DNA from: a virus | Lineage: Duplodnaviria > Heunggongvirae > Uroviricota > Caudoviricetes | IMG/VR virus record: IMGVR_UViG_2778261224_000004 | Length of the DNA: 47,754 bases | Direction: 5' to 3' (one strand) | Part shown: in pieces, positions 26,168 through 32,274 of the stretch | Layout: each line of letters begins with the position of its first letter | Numbering within the stretch: the first letter of the stretch is position 1 | Position numbers and translations under genes: made by a program | The notes under the pieces: model-generated | The model's database searches: none | What the model was told of the DNA's origin: nothing | The model's input: the letters and a program-made list of their open reading frames with translations, nothing else

Positions 26168-26421
26168 GAAACTATCCATTCTTCAATGAATATCTCCAGT
26201 AATATCAAGAGATACGCCGTTCCCAGCGCGGTTCCTACCGATATAGCTAAGACAAACCTCAAAGATAACGAGGTGTCCTTCGCTTTTCTCCAGACGTAAG
26301 CGCCAGCCAGAAATACCAACAAATCTCTTATTGGAAGCGGAAACCAGAACAAATCACTCGGCAAGTCCACGGTTATATCCTTCCATTCATTTTTATCGGG
26401 TGACCAGATAGCCTTAGGCAA
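26164..26421 (-). CDS. Hypothetical membrane protein
   Basis: 85-aa ORF with hydrophobic C-terminal half; start uncertain (overlaps previous ORF by 49 nt). Confidence 0.4.
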   Translation of the reverse strand: MPKAIWSPDKNEWKDITVDLPSDLFWFPLPIRDLLVFLAGAYVWRKAKDTSLSLRFVLAISVGTALGTAYLLILLEIFIEEWIVS

Positions 26422-26828
26422 TTGAGCTGTAAAGCTCCTGTATCAACTAAATGATCAACTAACATGATTAGAGATTCATATTCAGCCAGATAGCTAACCT
26501 GACGCATTCGACCGCCGTTGTTCTCCAGAATGTCAGCCACCTTTGCAGCCAACTCGCTTAGACAGAAGAACTTATTCCCATATATCGTTTTATACTCGCG
26601 CTTCTGGCATTCTTCGGCTTGCGGCTGGTTATCGAGAGCTATCAGCGACCGATGGCTATCAATGAAGTCCACAATCTCATTCAGGCATTCTTTAGCTGCC
26701 TCATCGTGACTTTTTCCGTATGCTTCACGGAGGACTTTCATCCTCATCATTGCTCCGTCACATATAGTCGAAAGCGCGTAAAGCACATCACTAACCGCCA
26801 TTTCTTTTTTGGTGCTTGTCGAAGGCAT
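26373..26828 (-). CDS. Hypothetical protein
   Basis: 151-aa ORF in accessory block. Confidence 0.45.
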   Translation of the reverse strand: MPSTSTKKEMAVSDVLYALSTICDGAMMRMKVLREAYGKSHDEAAKECLNEIVDFIDSHRSLIALDNQPQAEECQKREYKTIYGNKFFCLSELAAKVADILENNGGRMRQVSYLAEYESLIMLVDHLVDTGALQLNCLRLSGHPIKMNGRI

Positions 26829-27481: not shown

Positions 27482-28069
27482 CTATGACACTTGCCAGAGA
27501 GCATCATGCAACTGGATACCTCCGTTGCACTGGTTGCCCCAGCCATGCCAGCCATCAGGTAAATCACCGCGAGCAAACAGCTCAATACGAGGAACATCGC
27601 CTAACAGCTTTACCAGCTTGTCACGGACCACATCAGGCTTCCGAGAATGCTCCAGACGAGGCGATGTAAACGACTGAATGATCCCCGCATCAAGACGTGT
27701 CGGTAGTTTGCCTTTCACTGCAAACAAGCAATCTTCACTGTTTGCACGAGTCATATGCCCCATCCCCATCACCAGCTTATCTGGTTGTCGGCTACCACAT
27801 TTGTTCCATGTGAAGCCCTTCATGGTCATCAGCCTGAATCCCCATGCTTTCACCACCAGCAACGCTTCTTCTGGCTGAGTCGGAACCCACCACATGGCCA
27901 ACAAACACGATTCAGGATTAGCAAGCTGCCAGACAGGAATACGAGCAATATCCTCAGCTTTCATCGTTGGATACTTAAAACCAGCGCCACGATTCCCATC
28001 CTTACACTTGTCTTTGTATTCCCAGGGGGGATCTGCATAAATCAGATTAAACAATGCAATTGCCTCCAT
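27482..28069 (-). CDS. MT-A70-family N6-adenine DNA methyltransferase
   Basis: 195-aa ORF with catalytic motif YADPPWEY near the N-terminus. Confidence 0.7.
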   Translation of the reverse strand: MEAIALFNLIYADPPWEYKDKCKDGNRGAGFKYPTMKAEDIARIPVWQLANPESCLLAMWWVPTQPEEALLVVKAWGFRLMTMKGFTWNKCGSRQPDKLVMGMGHMTRANSEDCLFAVKGKLPTRLDAGIIQSFTSPRLEHSRKPDVVRDKLVKLLGDVPRIELFARGDLPDGWHGWGNQCNGGIQLHDALWQVS

Positions 28070-28376
28070 GTTAGTTGTGTCTCCGGCGCTTATCTCCGGC
28101 AGTCATAACGCTGGCCAGCTCTACAGCAAACACAACGAAAAGGGCGCTAACCAGACTGATTAATGCCCTTGCCTGTTGTGTGCCGGATATCGCCCGACAA
28201 CGCTGTTTTGGTAACACGGCTACAGTTCCGTGCCGCTCCAGCTTTTACCCCTTTGCGGATAACAGGCCCTGCCTGTAACTTAGCCCCACGTTCGCCCGAA
28301 ATGCGCACCAGGCACGCATAAAGATGAGCACGAAGAAGTAACTCCACCGCGCTTATCTTTATGTGTGAGAGTGAAT

Positions 28377-28452
28377 TGGTGGCCCCTACCGGATTTGAAC
28401 CGATGACCGTGCGATTATGAGTCGCCTGCTCTAACCACTGAGCTAAGGGGCC
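28377..28452 (-). tRNA. tRNA with CAT anticodon (Met or lysidine-type Ile2), encoded CCA end
   Basis: Hand-folded cloverleaf GGCCCCTTAGCTCAGTGGTTAGAGCAGGCGACTCATAATCGCACGGTCATCGGTTCAAATCCGGTAGGGGCCACCA: 7-bp acceptor stem, D arm, anticodon loop CTCATAA, T loop TTCAAAT. Confidence 0.85.
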
Positions 28453-28461
28453 ATATTTGAT

Positions 28462-28545
28462 TTGTTTGTCTGGTGTGGCGCCGCGCACGAAAATCCCAGC
28501 CAATAAATTCAGGATTTTTGGGCGCGGCGGCATATCAGACAAACA
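28462..28545. repeat. 84-bp imperfect palindrome (nested inverted repeats) next to the tRNA 5' end
   Basis: Inner arms 28477-28496 and 28512-28530 (about 19 bp, GC-rich), outer arms 28462-28472 and 28536-28545. Confidence 0.5.
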
Positions 28546-28621
28546 TGGTTGATGCGTGCGCCCATGAGAAAAGCGCATAGAATGTTGTAACTATATATTT
28601 ATATAATTATAGAAATATATA

Positions 28622-28831
28622 TTACTTTGGACAGTTGATTTCCCATGCCATGTTATGAGCCAGAATATCTTTCTTTGTCTGGCGGTCCATAACATCGATG
28701 TCGTGATCAGTCAGGTAGATGGGCTTTACCCAATCACAGGCGGTATCAACCACCACCGGGACGCTTCCACGACTCCCGCAGCTCGCGATCAACATCGTCA
28801 TCAGCCATATGGTTAACACTCTGCTGTACAT
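28622..28831 (-). CDS. Rz1-like outer-membrane lipoprotein (o-spanin candidate)
   Basis: 69-aa ORF with signal peptide and lipobox LIASC, in the +1 frame overlapping the 3' end of the Rz-like gene. Confidence 0.5.
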   Translation of the reverse strand: MYSRVLTIWLMTMLIASCGSRGSVPVVVDTACDWVKPIYLTDHDIDVMDRQTKKDILAHNMAWEINCPK

Positions 28832-29024
28832 TCCCCACCTCTTTTGTCACTTCTATACGCCGCTCCGCAGTGGCTTTTACGGCGGCTGCATTCTCATTAA
28901 TGCGCTGCTTTTCAGCTTCATCTTCGGCCTTTTCTCGCCCTTTCATACGACCAAAACCAAACGCGCCGAATGCAACCAATATAATTGTGCCAATAAATGA
29001 CAACACGGCCTTCAAACCAGTCAT
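28746..29024 (-). CDS. Rz-like inner-membrane spanin (i-spanin candidate)
   Basis: 92-aa ORF with N-terminal TM segment and charged periplasmic part, ATGA overlap with endolysin stop. Confidence 0.5.
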   Translation of the reverse strand: MTGLKAVLSFIGTIILVAFGAFGFGRMKGREKAEDEAEKQRINENAAAVKATAERRIEVTKEVGNVQQSVNHMADDDVDRELRESWKRPGGG

Positions 29025-29563
29025 ACCACCACTCGCTCTTTCATCCAGCCGTAGACAAACGACTCATTAGCCTCGCGCTTCTCCGCCAACTCCAGATAGC
29101 GTTCGCCCTGCGTACAGTTCAGCGACGTCAGCATCACCCGTTCGCCGTCTTTTCCCCGATTCCCAAGATAAGCACGTAGCGCATTAATGGTACGTGGACC
29201 GATTCGTCCGTCTGCATCCAAATCGGGATACAGCTTCCCGCGCAGGTTGAACACATTCAGCCAGCGTTGAAGCATTTTTGACGCCACTATTGGCCCCATG
29301 TTCACCCCCGTGTCACACAGCTCTGCGGCAATATCAGAGGATAATGCGGCCACCTGATCAAAGCGTGGTCCGTACCAGTAATCAGCCTCAAGGATTTCCA
29401 GTGCCTGTTCGCGGGTTAAATCGCGCATATCGCCACGGTATCCATGAGCACGGGCAGAGTTCTGAGTAATGCCCCACTTTGTTGGGCCTCCCTTGTCGTC
29501 AGGGTGATCCACATAGCCGCCCTCTTTTCCAAGAACGCTGTTAAAAATCTCATCTTTGGTCAT
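29021..29563 (-). CDS. Endolysin, GH108 family with peptidoglycan-binding domain
   Basis: 180-aa ORF; N-terminal ..GKEGGYVDHPDDKGGPTKWGIT.. typical of GH108 lysozymes. Confidence 0.75.
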   Translation of the reverse strand: MTKDEIFNSVLGKEGGYVDHPDDKGGPTKWGITQNSARAHGYRGDMRDLTREQALEILEADYWYGPRFDQVAALSSDIAAELCDTGVNMGPIVASKMLQRWLNVFNLRGKLYPDLDADGRIGPRTINALRAYLGNRGKDGERVMLTSLNCTQGERYLELAEKREANESFVYGWMKERVVV

Positions 29564-29882
29564 GATTAAACCCTAATGCGTCAACTATCCGCGCCAGATT
29601 GCCCCTGAAATACAGAACAACGATGCAGATAATCAGATTTCCAATAACCACCAGCCAGTGGGATTCTTGATAAAGACCGAACACATAACGGAAGGGAACA
29701 TTGGCGTATACAATGACGTAGATATAAGCCAGAAAGGAAACAAATGGACGATGCCTGGAGTCTTTCCGTCGATAAAGCATCAGCGCCATTACTATTACTG
29801 TGCAAAGCACCGCATTAATCAGTGCTGACGGGTCACTGCTTACCATTTGAACCCCCTCCACGTAATCGGGAAAGCATTCCAA
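29550..29882 (-). CDS. Holin/antiholin-like membrane protein (start uncertain)
   Basis: 110-aa ORF with hydrophobic helices; internal Met at MVSSDPSAL is an alternative start. Confidence 0.45.
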   Translation of the reverse strand: MECFPDYVEGVQMVSSDPSALINAVLCTVIVMALMLYRRKDSRHRPFVSFLAYIYVIVYANVPFRYVFGLYQESHWLVVIGNLIICIVVLYFRGNLARIVDALGFNHDQR

Positions 29883-30228
29883 AGATGCTACCGAGATCCT
29901 GGCTGTTTACGAACGTGAGGATTTTAATGGTCAATGCAGCCACAATAACCGCACCAAGCGCATCCAGAGGACGATCGTTGTAGCTGGTCCATTTGGCAAG
30001 AAATGAGCCAACTAACGGCGCTCCAATCACTCCAACAATGAACGATGTAAAGAAATAGCCAATCAGCTTGAGACGGCTAATATTCACCGCTGTAGCAACA
30101 TAGAAAACAGCGCCAGCAAATGCCCCGAATACAACGCCGTAATCAATACCAGTTGCAATACCAAAAACGCTGGCACCCATCAGGCCACCAGCAGCAACGG
30201 CCGTACCGGAAATTGGTTCTGCTGACAT
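29833..30228 (-). CDS. Holin-like membrane protein
   Basis: 131-aa ORF, Gly/Ala-rich TM segments, first gene of lysis block. Confidence 0.5.
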   Translation of the reverse strand: MSAEPISGTAVAAGGLMGASVFGIATGIDYGVVFGAFAGAVFYVATAVNISRLKLIGYFFTSFIVGVIGAPLVGSFLAKWTSYNDRPLDALGAVIVAALTIKILTFVNSQDLGSIFGMLSRLRGGGSNGKQ

Positions 30229-30418: not shown

Positions 30419-30610
30419 TCAACTTTTTACCAACTGAACATCCCGACCAGGACTTCCATAATATTCGCCGATATTCCACTGCTTAAGTTGAGTAATCTTC
30501 TCCAACTTAACTCCCACAGAATCCAATTTCTGCCATGTTTTCGGTTGTATGTGCCTCATTACCCGCTCTGAATATCTAAATACTGCTCGTAGCCTCGCTA
30601 AATTGCTCAC
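30419..30610 (-). CDS. Hypothetical protein
   Basis: 63-aa ORF, ATGA overlap with upstream gene. Confidence 0.35.
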   Translation of the reverse strand: MSNLARLRAVFRYSERVMRHIQPKTWQKLDSVGVKLEKITQLKQWNIGEYYGSPGRDVQLVKS

Positions 30611-31368
30611 TTGTCGCCTCCTTTACGAATCTGTTCCGCCCACTCCTCAAGAGATTTCTCCGCATATTCACCGGACAGGCCATCAATCGGGTGCGGTTCA
30701 TTAGCCAACTCTTCTTTCGCTGACAAAATCATGCGTGTAACGTCGAAAACTTCACGCAAAGACTTATTGATAAATCCGTGATTGAACGCAGCAGCAAGAC
30801 GGCTTGCGGTGTAGTTAATCCCCTCGTTGCGTGCCTCCGCACGTATTTCAGCCAGGAAAGCATCGGTGGCTGGAATGGGCTTTTGTGGTGATATAGCAAT
30901 GCGAATTGTCTCAAGGTCTGGAGCTGTTTCCGCTGTTGGCACCTTGATATAACCCGTCTGCACCCCATTCATGATGAACCTGCGACGGTCATCACATATC
31001 GCCTTAAGCCCTGCATTCTCCGCCGCCAGCGCCGCACGACTGGCCTCCAGTTCAGCAATGCGTTTGCTTTGTGCTTCCCGTTCATTCAGCAACGCCTGCA
31101 CTACTTCTGGGTTGAAAGCTGCGATATAACGAGCGTTGTTCTCTGCGTTTTTCTGTCCGTCAAAGCCGGTCCATTTGATAACGTCTTCACATCGTTTATC
31201 ACCGGGTGTATGCACCGCATATGTACCAGTACCCGACGAAATAAATGCGACCCATTCGCCCTGTGTTGCCTGTTTTGCTATCTCACGTAGTGCCTGATAG
31301 TTAATTGCTGTGCTGTTAGTCATTCCAGGCCTCCAGCTCGTTCTGAATCTCCTCGTCAACCTCGTCAT
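30607..31368 (-). CDS. Hypothetical protein (possibly Ead/Ea22-like; start may be at Met 31323)
   Basis: 253-aa ORF with central coiled-coil-like segment; family assignment by recollection only. Confidence 0.4.
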   Translation of the reverse strand: MTRLTRRFRTSWRPGMTNSTAINYQALREIAKQATQGEWVAFISSGTGTYAVHTPGDKRCEDVIKWTGFDGQKNAENNARYIAAFNPEVVQALLNEREAQSKRIAELEASRAALAAENAGLKAICDDRRRFIMNGVQTGYIKVPTAETAPDLETIRIAISPQKPIPATDAFLAEIRAEARNEGINYTASRLAAAFNHGFINKSLREVFDVTRMILSAKEELANEPHPIDGLSGEYAEKSLEEWAEQIRKGGDK

Positions 31369-31660
31369 TGGTGGCGTCTTCGTTCAGATGGTCGCGCGCC
31401 TCTTTGAGATACTGTTCACGGCGTTCGTGGTACCAGGCTGAGAACTCCGGCGACCATCCTCGATTAGCCCCCTGAAAATCTACCATCGCATTATCCTCGG
31501 CCATACGCTCGACCATGCAATCCGCGGTGTTCAGTGCAACCTCACGGATGTACCCCCGCAGGTCGCGCTTACGCCAATACGGGCTATATTTTGAGTCGCA
31601 GCGGCCTTTAAATTCGACGGTCCAGCGACGGATGCAGCGTGCGTTAAGTGATTTGCTCAT
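31316..31660 (-). CDS. Hypothetical protein
   Basis: 114-aa ORF with acidic C-terminus. Confidence 0.4.
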   Translation of the reverse strand: MSKSLNARCIRRWTVEFKGRCDSKYSPYWRKRDLRGYIREVALNTADCMVERMAEDNAMVDFQGANRGWSPEFSAWYHERREQYLKEARDHLNEDATNDEVDEEIQNELEAWND

Positions 31661-31662
31661 AG

Positions 31663-32274
31663 TTATGCTTCCTTAATACGCTTAAACTCAATTACCCATA
31701 CCCACGGGTTAGATAGCCAGTTCTCTTGCCCGTAAATACCGCGCCAGATATCACCAAAGCCAACGCGATAAACAGCTTCCGGCGGTGTAATCTTGTACGT
31801 CACCGGAGATGCGCCTTCTGCTTTAGCATCTGCCTCGCTCATGTCATGTAGCCGTTCCACACGCACGTCGGTTATTTCCAACAGAATACGGCTGGCCCAA
31901 CGTGGCATGTGAATTGATGGGGTCCAACCCTCAGCTGGCTTGCTACTATCTGAGTAATCAGCCTTGTAATCACACAGTTCAGAAGCCAGAGAGACACCAT
32001 CTTTGATTTCCTGAATGACATCGTTATCCAGCCAAAAAGCGTTGAATGTTTCACGTACCCATATGCGATCACCAACGTTACCGAACGGGCATAAACCATG
32101 TTCCGGTGCATCCATAACGTGGGTATAGACACCATTGCGTTTCTTTGTCGGTTTACGGATAACCAGGCAGTTATCGGCCCTGACATTTTTTACAGGTCGG
32201 CGAGTCTGCGTCTTCCTTCCTTCGAGGATGGCCCTAACCATATCGTCATTAAAAACAACACCACGTTCTTTCAT
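31663..32274 (-). CDS. Hypothetical protein (possible ASCH/PUA-like fold)
   Basis: 203-aa ORF; N-terminal ..MVRAILEGRKTQTRRP.. pattern. Confidence 0.4.
   Translation of the reverse strand: MKERGVVFNDDMVRAILEGRKTQTRRPVKNVRADNCLVIRKPTKKRNGVYTHVMDAPEHGLCPFGNVGDRIWVRETFNAFWLDNDVIQEIKDGVSLASELCDYKADYSDSSKPAEGWTPSIHMPRWASRILLEITDVRVERLHDMSEADAKAEGASPVTYKITPPEAVYRVGFGDIWRGIYGQENWLSNPWVWVIEFKRIKEA

What the first reader, a model, noticed from the sequence alone, without database searches (positions are those of the whole stretch)
28377..28452. Phage-encoded tRNA with CAT anticodon, possibly a lysidine-type tRNA-Ile2 that reads AUA
A canonical 76-nt tRNA with encoded CCA lies between the lysis cassette and the methyltransferase gene. 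The anticodon is CAT, and the acceptor/D-arm sequence resembles enterobacterial tRNA-Ile2 (ileX) as I recall it, rather than elongator or initiator tRNA-Met. The AT-rich late genes use ATA codons often, so a dedicated AUA decoder would make sense.
Basis: partly seen in the sequence, partly recalled or inferred. Interest (0 to 1): 0.45.

Follow-up and report, generated by a model that had tools for sequence, protein, structure and literature searches.

The report
Phage-plasmid tRNA-Ile2 gene reading AUA
The phage-plasmid carries a real tRNA gene that looks like tRNA-Met by its anticodon but is a copy of the host's minor isoleucine tRNA, which reads the rare codon AUA that the phage uses about five times more often than the host; this is a well-known kind of phage gene.

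Summary
A 76-nt tRNA with anticodon CAT and an encoded CCA lies at 28377-28452 on the minus strand, between a holin-holin-endolysin cassette and an MT-A70 methyltransferase gene.

The tRNA differs from E. coli ileX at 8 positions, from elongator tRNA-Met at 20 and from initiator tRNA at 30.
- It has the TilS determinants C4-G69 and C5-G68.
- It has the IleRS elements A73, U12-A23, C29-G41, A37 and A38.
- It lacks every MetRS, TmcA and initiator determinant.

NCBI's PGAP, which separates CAT tRNAs in the same collection, calls the identical sequence tRNA-Ile in an E. coli plasmid. ARAGORN and three GenBank phage records call it tRNA-Met from the anticodon alone.

ATA makes up 16-17 per 1000 codons in this element (22 per 1000 in head and tail genes), against 3.4 per 1000 in a host sample.

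The gene belongs to a tRNA lineage found mainly on mobile elements. It is 94.7% identical to phage P1 trnI, which its curated GenBank record annotates as tRNA-Ile2. It is analogous to ileZ of Stx phage 933W.

The finding is correct but already known, so interest is low. Lysidine modification, charging and expression were not testable here.

The parts
28377..28452 (-). tRNA-Ile2 gene (anticodon CAT, CCA encoded), 76 nt
   Evidence: ARAGORN. Rfam RF00005, 67 bits. 100% identical to a PGAP-annotated tRNA-Ile in NZ_CP032259.1. 89.5% identical to ileX, 74% to metT.
28417..28419 (-). Anticodon CAT (tRNA positions 34-36). C34 is the predicted site of lysidine formation by host TilS.
   Evidence: Position from ARAGORN and the sequence. 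The modification is inferred from determinants and was not tested.
28448..28449 (-). C4 and C5 of the acceptor stem. They pair with G69 and G68 (28384-28385) and form the E. coli TilS positive determinants.
   Evidence: Alignment A1. Determinants as stated in PMC2500205 and PMC1635315.
28384..28385 (-). G68 and G69, the partners of C5 and C4
   Evidence: Alignment A1.
28463..28545 (.). Long imperfect hairpin (34-nt arms, 85% complementary) 10 nt upstream of the tRNA 5' end on the minus strand. Role unknown; possibly a processing or attenuation structure.
   Evidence: the repeat finder I1. It forms in the fold of the 261-nt region. It is invariant in the relatives that carry it, so covariation could not be tested. 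No T-run follows it.
28313..28367 (.). Second imperfect hairpin (27-nt arms, 78% complementary) 10 nt downstream of the tRNA 3' end. Role unknown.
   Evidence: the repeat finder I2. It does not match the terminator pattern.

Best explanation
This is a functional tRNA-Ile2 gene of the ileX/ileY type, carried by a ~48-kb temperate phage-plasmid of E. coli and its relatives. Proposed mechanism, all steps inferred: the gene is transcribed on the same strand as the lysis, packaging, head and tail genes. RNase P and 3' trimming release a tRNA whose CCA is already encoded. Host TilS recognises C4-G69 and C5-G68 plus the anticodon loop and converts C34 to lysidine. This switches both decoding (AUG to AUA) and charging (MetRS to IleRS). 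The extra tRNA adds to the host's one or two ileX/ileY copies, so the ATA-rich phage genes, above all the head and tail genes, are translated without stalling at this rare codon. Shown here: that it is a tRNA, its sequence determinants, its relatives and the ATA enrichment. Not shown: expression, modification, charging and any fitness benefit.
For: It is a tRNA. It has 8 differences from ileX, 20 from metT/metU and 30 from the initiator. The acceptor stem, D arm and anticodon loop are identical to ileX. It has C4-G69 and C5-G68, which E. coli TilS needs, and lacks U4-A69 and A5-U68, which are MetRS determinants and block TilS (PMC2500205; PMC1635315; PMC9976931). TmcA requires C27-G43, C30-G40 and G44 on tRNA-Met; this tRNA has G27.A43, G30-C40 and C44. 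The IleRS elements A73, C4-G69, U12-A23, C29-G41, A37 and A38 are all present. PGAP calls the identical gene tRNA-Ile. P1 trnI is 94.7% identical and is curated as 'tRNA-ile2 (CAT)'. 933W ileZ is analogous. ATA is 16.6 per 1000 codons and 26% of Ile codons in the window. It is 16.3 per 1000 with PGAP gene calls on the sister plasmid and 21.8 per 1000 in head and tail genes, against 3.4 per 1000 and 5% in the host sample. Across at least 120 viral contigs, the stem substitutions at pairs 6-67 and 50-64 are C/U changes opposite G, and C4-G69 and C5-G68 never change. E. coli genomes have a median of only 2 such genes.
Against: Position 43 is A, which gives a G27.A43 mismatch where ileX has G.U. 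Anticodon-stem substitutions are reported to impair E. coli TilS (PMC11947777), and the effect of this one is unknown. No sigma-70-like promoter or terminator was found near the gene, so its expression is unproven. The minimum-free-energy fold of the bare transcript is not a clean cloverleaf, although this is common for unmodified tRNA sequences. AGG and AGA are also enriched (6.1-fold and 3.5-fold) but no matching tRNA is carried, so codon compensation is at best selective. The ATA enrichment may simply follow from the lower G+C content (44.6%). The host sample is only 9.5-12.7 thousand codons from one region.
Confidence: 0.85

Rival explanations
1. It is an elongator tRNA-Met, as annotated in the Yersinia phage records and named by ARAGORN, supplying extra AUG decoding.
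For: Anticodon CAT. ARAGORN labels it tRNA-Met. OR545053-55 and many other phage records annotate it or its relatives as tRNA-Met. Any unmodified fraction would be charged by MetRS and read AUG (PMC1635315).
Against: Those labels come from the anticodon alone. It has 20 differences from metT against 8 from ileX. It lacks U4-A69 and A5-U68 (MetRS) and C27-G43, C30-G40 and G44 (TmcA). ATG is not enriched: 18.8 per 1000 in the window against 25-27 per 1000 in the host.
Confidence: 0.03
2. It is a true tRNA-Ile2, but it is kept mainly as a spare that stays available when the host tRNA pool is depleted or cleaved during infection (anti-defence or shut-off insurance), not to match codon usage.
For: The gene forms a lineage found mainly on mobile elements: 1 hit in 185,579 species genomes against at least 120 viral contigs. 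It carries a distinctive G27.A43 and a T arm unlike ileX. It sits in at least four unrelated flanking contexts, and homology to P1 stops exactly at the tRNA ends. Only one of the three most enriched rare codons has a tRNA.
Against: I know of no nuclease or defence system that targets tRNA-Ile2 (own knowledge, not searched exhaustively). The anticodon loop, the usual nuclease target, is identical to ileX. The ATA enrichment fits the simpler supply explanation.
Confidence: 0.08
3. It is a non-functional relic: a decaying captured copy or the remnant of an attachment site.
For: No promoter was detected. It has a G27.A43 mismatch. It lies in a 293-nt intergenic gap with odd hairpins.
Against: It is a full-length cloverleaf scoring 67 bits. 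It is 100% conserved across plasmids and phages whose flanks differ. The variation seen preserves base pairing. The near-identical plasmid has no annotated integrase. The G.A mismatch is shared with the whole P1 lineage rather than being a private lesion.
Confidence: 0.04

Closest known systems
Phage P1 trnI (tRNA-Ile2, CAT), NC_005856 70933-71008
   Same: 72 of 76 nt are identical. It shares the G27.A43 mismatch, C44, C4-G69 and C5-G68, and it is also carried by a phage-plasmid.
   Different: There are four substitutions: 6, 26, 50 and 59. Those in stems remain paired. The context is unrelated: in P1 the gene lies in the tciABC-trnI-ban operon with two other tRNAs nearby, while here it is a lone tRNA after the lysis cassette. 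Homology ends exactly at the tRNA borders.
E. coli chromosomal ileX/ileY (tRNA-Ile2, lysidine-modified AUA decoder)
   Same: 68 of 76 nt are identical. The acceptor stem, D arm and anticodon loop are identical, and all known TilS and IleRS determinants are shared.
   Different: Position 43 is A instead of U. The variable loop differs (CACGG against CTTGG), as do the T-stem pairs and one T-loop base. The gene is on a mobile element.
ileZ of Stx2 phage 933W (ileZ-argN-argO cluster)
   Same: It is a phage-borne ileX-like CAT tRNA annotated tRNA-Ile, located in the late region, with a non-Watson-Crick 27-43 pair (A.C).
   Different: It is a separate lineage with a T arm like ileX. It belongs to a three-tRNA cluster with its own annotated promoter, upstream of stx2. 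Here there is a single tRNA with no arginine tRNAs, although AGA and AGG are also enriched.
E. coli elongator tRNA-Met (metT/metU)
   Same: Same CAU anticodon and anticodon loop, A73, and a similar D arm.
   Different: metT has U4-A69, A5-U68, C27-G43, C30-G40, G44 and an extra D-loop base. None of these is present in the window tRNA. Identity is 74%.

Membership tests
Bacterial tRNA-Ile2 (CAU to LAU, E. coli ileX type) | Canonical cloverleaf tRNA with genomic anticodon CAT | tested here: met
   ARAGORN. Rfam tRNA model, 67 bits, E = 1.6e-12.
Bacterial tRNA-Ile2 (CAU to LAU, E. coli ileX type) | C4-G69 and C5-G68, the positive determinants for E. coli TilS | tested here: met
   The acceptor stem is GGCCCCU/AGGGGCC. 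Determinants from PMC2500205 and PMC1635315. They are invariant in all 13 variants.
Bacterial tRNA-Ile2 (CAU to LAU, E. coli ileX type) | IleRS identity elements A73, U12-A23, C29-G41, A35, U36, A37, A38 | tested here: met
   All are present in alignment A1. The list comes from PMC9976931 Table 1. G16 is absent, but it is also absent from ileX itself.
Bacterial tRNA-Ile2 (CAU to LAU, E. coli ileX type) | Closer to known Ile2 than to Met or fMet types (the minimum-differences criterion of PMC1635315) | tested here: met
   8 differences from ileX, 20 from metT/U and 30 from metZ/V.
Bacterial tRNA-Ile2 (CAU to LAU, E. coli ileX type) | Called Ile by an isotype-aware annotation pipeline | tested here: met
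   This is by proxy. PGAP labels the identical 76 nt tRNA-Ile and labels metT/U and metZWV tRNA-Met. tRNAscan-SE itself could not be run.
Bacterial tRNA-Ile2 (CAU to LAU, E. coli ileX type) | G27.U43 wobble pair as in E. coli tRNA-Ile2 (a negative determinant for TmcA) | tested here: inconclusive
   Here the pair is G27.A43. It is still not the C27-G43 that TmcA needs. It is shared with P1 trnI, and 933W ileZ has A.C. Its effect on TilS is unknown.
Bacterial tRNA-Ile2 (CAU to LAU, E. coli ileX type) | C34 actually converted to lysidine, and the tRNA charged with Ile | not testable with these tools
   This needs mass spectrometry or in vitro TilS and IleRS assays.
Elongator tRNA-Met | U4-A69 and A5-U68 (MetRS determinants and TilS antideterminants) | tested here: not met
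   The window tRNA has C4-G69 and C5-G68 (PMC9976931; PMC2500205).
Elongator tRNA-Met | C27-G43, C30-G40 and G44 (TmcA determinants for ac4C34) | tested here: not met
   The window tRNA has G27.A43, G30-C40 and C44 (PMC2500205).
Initiator tRNA-fMet | C1xA72 mismatch, A11-U24, and three G-C pairs at 29-31:39-41 | tested here: not met
   The window tRNA has G1-C72, C11-G24 and the anticodon stem GGCGA/UCGCA. Features from PMC1635315.
Phage tRNA matching a codon over-used by the phage | The cognate codon is enriched in phage genes relative to the host | tested here: met
   ATA is 16.3-16.6 per 1000 against 3.4 per 1000, a 4.8-fold difference, p = 8e-23. It is 21.8 per 1000 in head and tail genes.

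The most novel reading that the evidence does not exclude
The P1/window type tRNA-Ile2 may be a specialised lineage of mobile elements that moves between unrelated phage-plasmid backbones as a precise 76-nt cassette. Its conserved non-Watson-Crick 27-43 pair (G.A) and altered T arm may be adaptive, for example by tuning recognition by TilS or TmcA or by escaping a host factor that acts on chromosomal tRNA-Ile2, rather than being neutral drift.
Probability: 0.1. Interest if true: 0.4.

Novelty: already known. Interest (0 to 1): 0.12.

Why it matters
The gene explains how an AT-rich temperate phage-plasmid can express ATA-rich structural genes in a host where AUA is among the rarest codons. It is also a clear example of a recurrent annotation error. 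ARAGORN and many GenBank phage records label this tRNA and its relatives tRNA-Met, which hides AUA-decoding capacity in surveys of phage tRNAs. Beyond this curation point, nothing here changes current understanding.

Tried and rejected
1. I guessed that the element belonged to the pSLy3 phage-plasmid group. That group is part of the ~100-kb SSU5 supergroup, so I dropped the idea.
2. Yersinia phage HQ103 is a different, 32-kb phage.
3. The P1 genome paper is not held. Searches for trnI and for ileZ/argN/argO returned only irrelevant papers. I therefore used the GenBank annotations of P1 and 933W instead.
4. The promoter and terminator scan around the tRNA found no promoter and only one chance-level terminator on the other strand.
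5. I looked for covariation in the flanking hairpins. The hairpins occur only in this element family and are invariant there, so this gave no information.
6. The 143-aa ORF at 28147-28578 (minus strand) overlaps the tRNA and is not annotated by PGAP. I treat it as spurious.
7. The idea of an attachment-site remnant was rejected. The tRNA is complete and the sister plasmid has no annotated integrase.

Full report
**Observation**

ARAGORN reports a single tRNA in the 47,754-base window, at 28377-28452 on the minus strand, with anticodon CAT. The Rfam tRNA covariance model matches 28380-28452 at 67 bits against a gathering score of 29, E = 1.6e-12. The gene is 76 nt long and CCA is encoded:

GGCCCCTTAGCTCAGTGGTTAGAGCAGGCGACTCATAATCGCACGGTCATCGGTTCAAATCCGGTAGGGGCCACCA

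Only the strand was left unstated.

**Surroundings**

- Pfam on the window's own ORFs identifies the genes around the tRNA, all on the minus strand. Just upstream are Phage_holin_8 (29833-30228), Phage_holin_3_7 (29550-29882), a GH108 endolysin with a peptidoglycan-binding domain (29021-29563) and a 92-aa ORF with no Pfam match (28746-29024). Just downstream is an MT-A70 methyltransferase (27482-28069).
- The window as a whole aligns at 97-99.5% with the circular 49.9-kb E. coli plasmid NZ_CP032259.1 and wraps around it, so it is essentially a complete element.
- PGAP annotates that plasmid with RepA, ParA, a RelE/ParE toxin, terminase, portal, capsid, and sheath, tube and baseplate genes. This makes it a temperate phage-plasmid.
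- 121 plasmid records match the tRNA region, 98 of them Escherichia. Those listed are 46-50 kb, and 116 of the 121 are predicted non-mobilizable.
- Three Yersinia pestis-plating phages, vB_YpM_39, 41 and 44, are 97% identical over this region.

**Identity of the tRNA**

I aligned it with E. coli ileX (next to rpoD and mug), metT/metU, the initiators metZ/metV and P1 trnI. Identities were as follows:

| Compared with | Identity |
|---|---|
| P1 trnI | 72/76 |
| E. coli ileX | 68/76 |
| E. coli metT/metU | 57/77 |
| Initiator metZ/metV | 47/77 |

The acceptor stem, D arm and anticodon loop are identical to ileX. The differences are position 43, two variable-loop bases and the T arm.

I took the experimentally defined determinants from the literature rather than from memory.

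- **TilS.** E. coli TilS requires C4-G69 and C5-G68. U4-A69 and A5-U68 of tRNA-Met block it (PMC2500205; PMC1635315; restated in PMC11947777). The window tRNA has C4-G69 and C5-G68.
- **MetRS.** It uses U4-A69 and A5-U68 (PMC9976931 Table 1). Both are absent here.
- **TmcA.** This enzyme acetylates C34 of tRNA-Met and needs C27-G43, C30-G40 and G44. The window tRNA has G27.A43, G30-C40 and C44.
- **IleRS.** Its elements A73, C4-G69, U12-A23, C29-G41, A35, U36, A37 and A38 are all present.
- **Initiator.** The features C1xA72, A11-U24 and the three G-C pairs in the anticodon stem are all absent.

**Isotype-aware annotation**

tRNAscan-SE was not available, but there is a proxy. PGAP annotates the identical 76 nt in NZ_CP032259.1 as tRNA-Ile. 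In the same collection it labels ileX as tRNA-Ile and metT/U and metZWV as tRNA-Met, so it does discriminate between CAT tRNAs. The tRNA-Met labels from ARAGORN and in the Yersinia phage records follow the anticodon alone.

**Codon usage**

| Gene set | ATA per 1000 codons | ATA share of Ile codons |
|---|---|---|
| Window, non-overlapping long ORFs (13,733 codons) | 16.6 | 26% |
| Sister plasmid, PGAP gene calls, all | 16.3 | 25% |
| Sister plasmid, head and tail genes | 21.8 | 31% |
| Sister plasmid, lysis to terminase | 10.5 | 18% |
| Sister plasmid, maintenance and early genes | 12.4 | 20% |
| E. coli, annotated CDS in a 50-kb stretch, all | 2.7 | 4.0% |
| E. coli, same stretch without ribosomal-protein operons | 3.4 | 5.0% |

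- The enrichment is 4.8-fold (Fisher p = 8e-23).
- ATA ranks second of all codons by ratio, after AGG, and has the largest absolute excess among the host's rare codons.
- The window is 44.6% G+C, so composition probably drives the enrichment. The demand for AUA decoding is real either way.
- E. coli genomes carry a median of two ileX-like genes, with a range of 1-14.

**Relatives**

- P1 trnI, curated in GenBank as 'tRNA-ile2 (CAT) gene; 89 pct identical to ileX', differs at four positions and shares the G27.A43 mismatch.
- Homology between this element and P1 is confined to exactly the 76 nt.
- A pattern specific for this variant (anticodon loop to 3' end) hit 1 of 185,579 species-representative genomes, an 83-kb Escherichia contig. 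It hit at least 120 viral contigs.
- Thirteen sequence variants occur among those contigs. The stem changes at pairs 6-67 and 50-64 are C/U substitutions opposite G, and C4-G69 and C5-G68 never vary.
- The tRNA sits in at least four unrelated upstream contexts.
- 933W ileZ is another phage Ile2-type tRNA. It has A27.C43. So a non-Watson-Crick 27-43 pair is common to ileX (G.U), the P1 and window type (G.A) and ileZ (A.C), in contrast to the C27-G43 that TmcA needs.

**Mechanism**

I infer the following. The gene is transcribed with, or alongside, the co-directional late genes. It is processed to a tRNA whose CCA is encoded. Host TilS then converts C34 to lysidine, and the tRNA is charged by IleRS and reads AUA. 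The identity determinants and the codon demand are shown. Expression, modification and charging are inferred.

Caveats:
- The effect of A43 on TilS is unknown, and anticodon-stem changes can impair E. coli TilS.
- No promoter or terminator was detected near the gene.
- The bare-sequence minimum-free-energy fold is not a clean cloverleaf.
- AGA and AGG are also enriched without a matching tRNA.

**Rival explanations**

- **Elongator tRNA-Met.** This is contradicted by every determinant and by the lack of ATG enrichment.
- **Anti-defence or pool-insurance role for a true tRNA-Ile2.** This remains possible, but the anticodon loop is identical to the host's and I know of no nuclease that targets tRNA-Ile2.
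- **Relic.** This is contradicted by perfect conservation across diverged backbones and by variation that preserves the structure.

**Verdict**

The feature is ordinary and already known. The identical sequence is in RefSeq as tRNA-Ile, and its P1 and 933W counterparts are annotated as isoleucine tRNAs in their reference GenBank records. The only practical point is that many phage records, and ARAGORN's naming, call it tRNA-Met.

Noticed in passing
window 39559-39855 (-): A full-length match to the Rfam ryfA sRNA family (142 bits, gathering score 80) on a phage-plasmid. From my own recollection, ryfA loci can encode a small toxic peptide with a partner sRNA, so this might be a type I toxin-antitoxin-like stabiliser. 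I did not check this.
   Followed up: no
window 40227-40299 (+) and 40324-40412 (+): Adjacent Rfam matches to isrK (65.8 bits) and C4 antisense RNA (77.8 bits), resembling the c4 immunity RNA region of P1/P7. In the sister plasmid the neighbouring genes are a Rha-family regulator and an ORF6N-domain protein, so this element may use P1-style antisense control of an antirepressor.
   Followed up: no
window 28463-28545 and 28313-28367: Two long imperfect hairpins bracket the tRNA at 10 nt on each side (34-nt arms at 85%, 27-nt arms at 78%). Neither has a T-run. Both are invariant in all relatives that carry them and absent from P1-type contexts. Their function is unknown; they may be processing sites.
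   Followed up: partly
window 28592-28621: A 30-nt, almost perfect AT-only palindrome (TATATATTTATATAA/TTATAGAAATATATA) lies between the last lysis-cassette ORF and the tRNA. It contains TATAAT on the minus strand, but the scan called no promoter.
   Followed up: partly
window 26364-26649, 30592-32049 and 41702-41852, compared with L001: These segments have no megablast match to the otherwise 98-99.5% identical plasmid NZ_CP032259.1. That plasmid in turn carries an IS21 insertion (istA/istB) that is absent from the window. They are variable cargo or replacement regions.
   Followed up: no
phage records OR545053-OR545055, FO818745, MH160767, ON018986 and others: Many GenBank phage records annotate this tRNA or its P1-type relatives as tRNA-Met or leave it unannotated. 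RefSeq and PGAP and the curated P1 and P7 records call it tRNA-Ile. This is a systematic mis-annotation of CAT tRNAs.
   Followed up: partly
E. coli genomes: The number of ileX-like genes per E. coli genome ranges from 1 to 14 (median 2). 640 copies lie on plasmids, and O157-type genomes carry 10-11, presumably through prophages.
   Followed up: no
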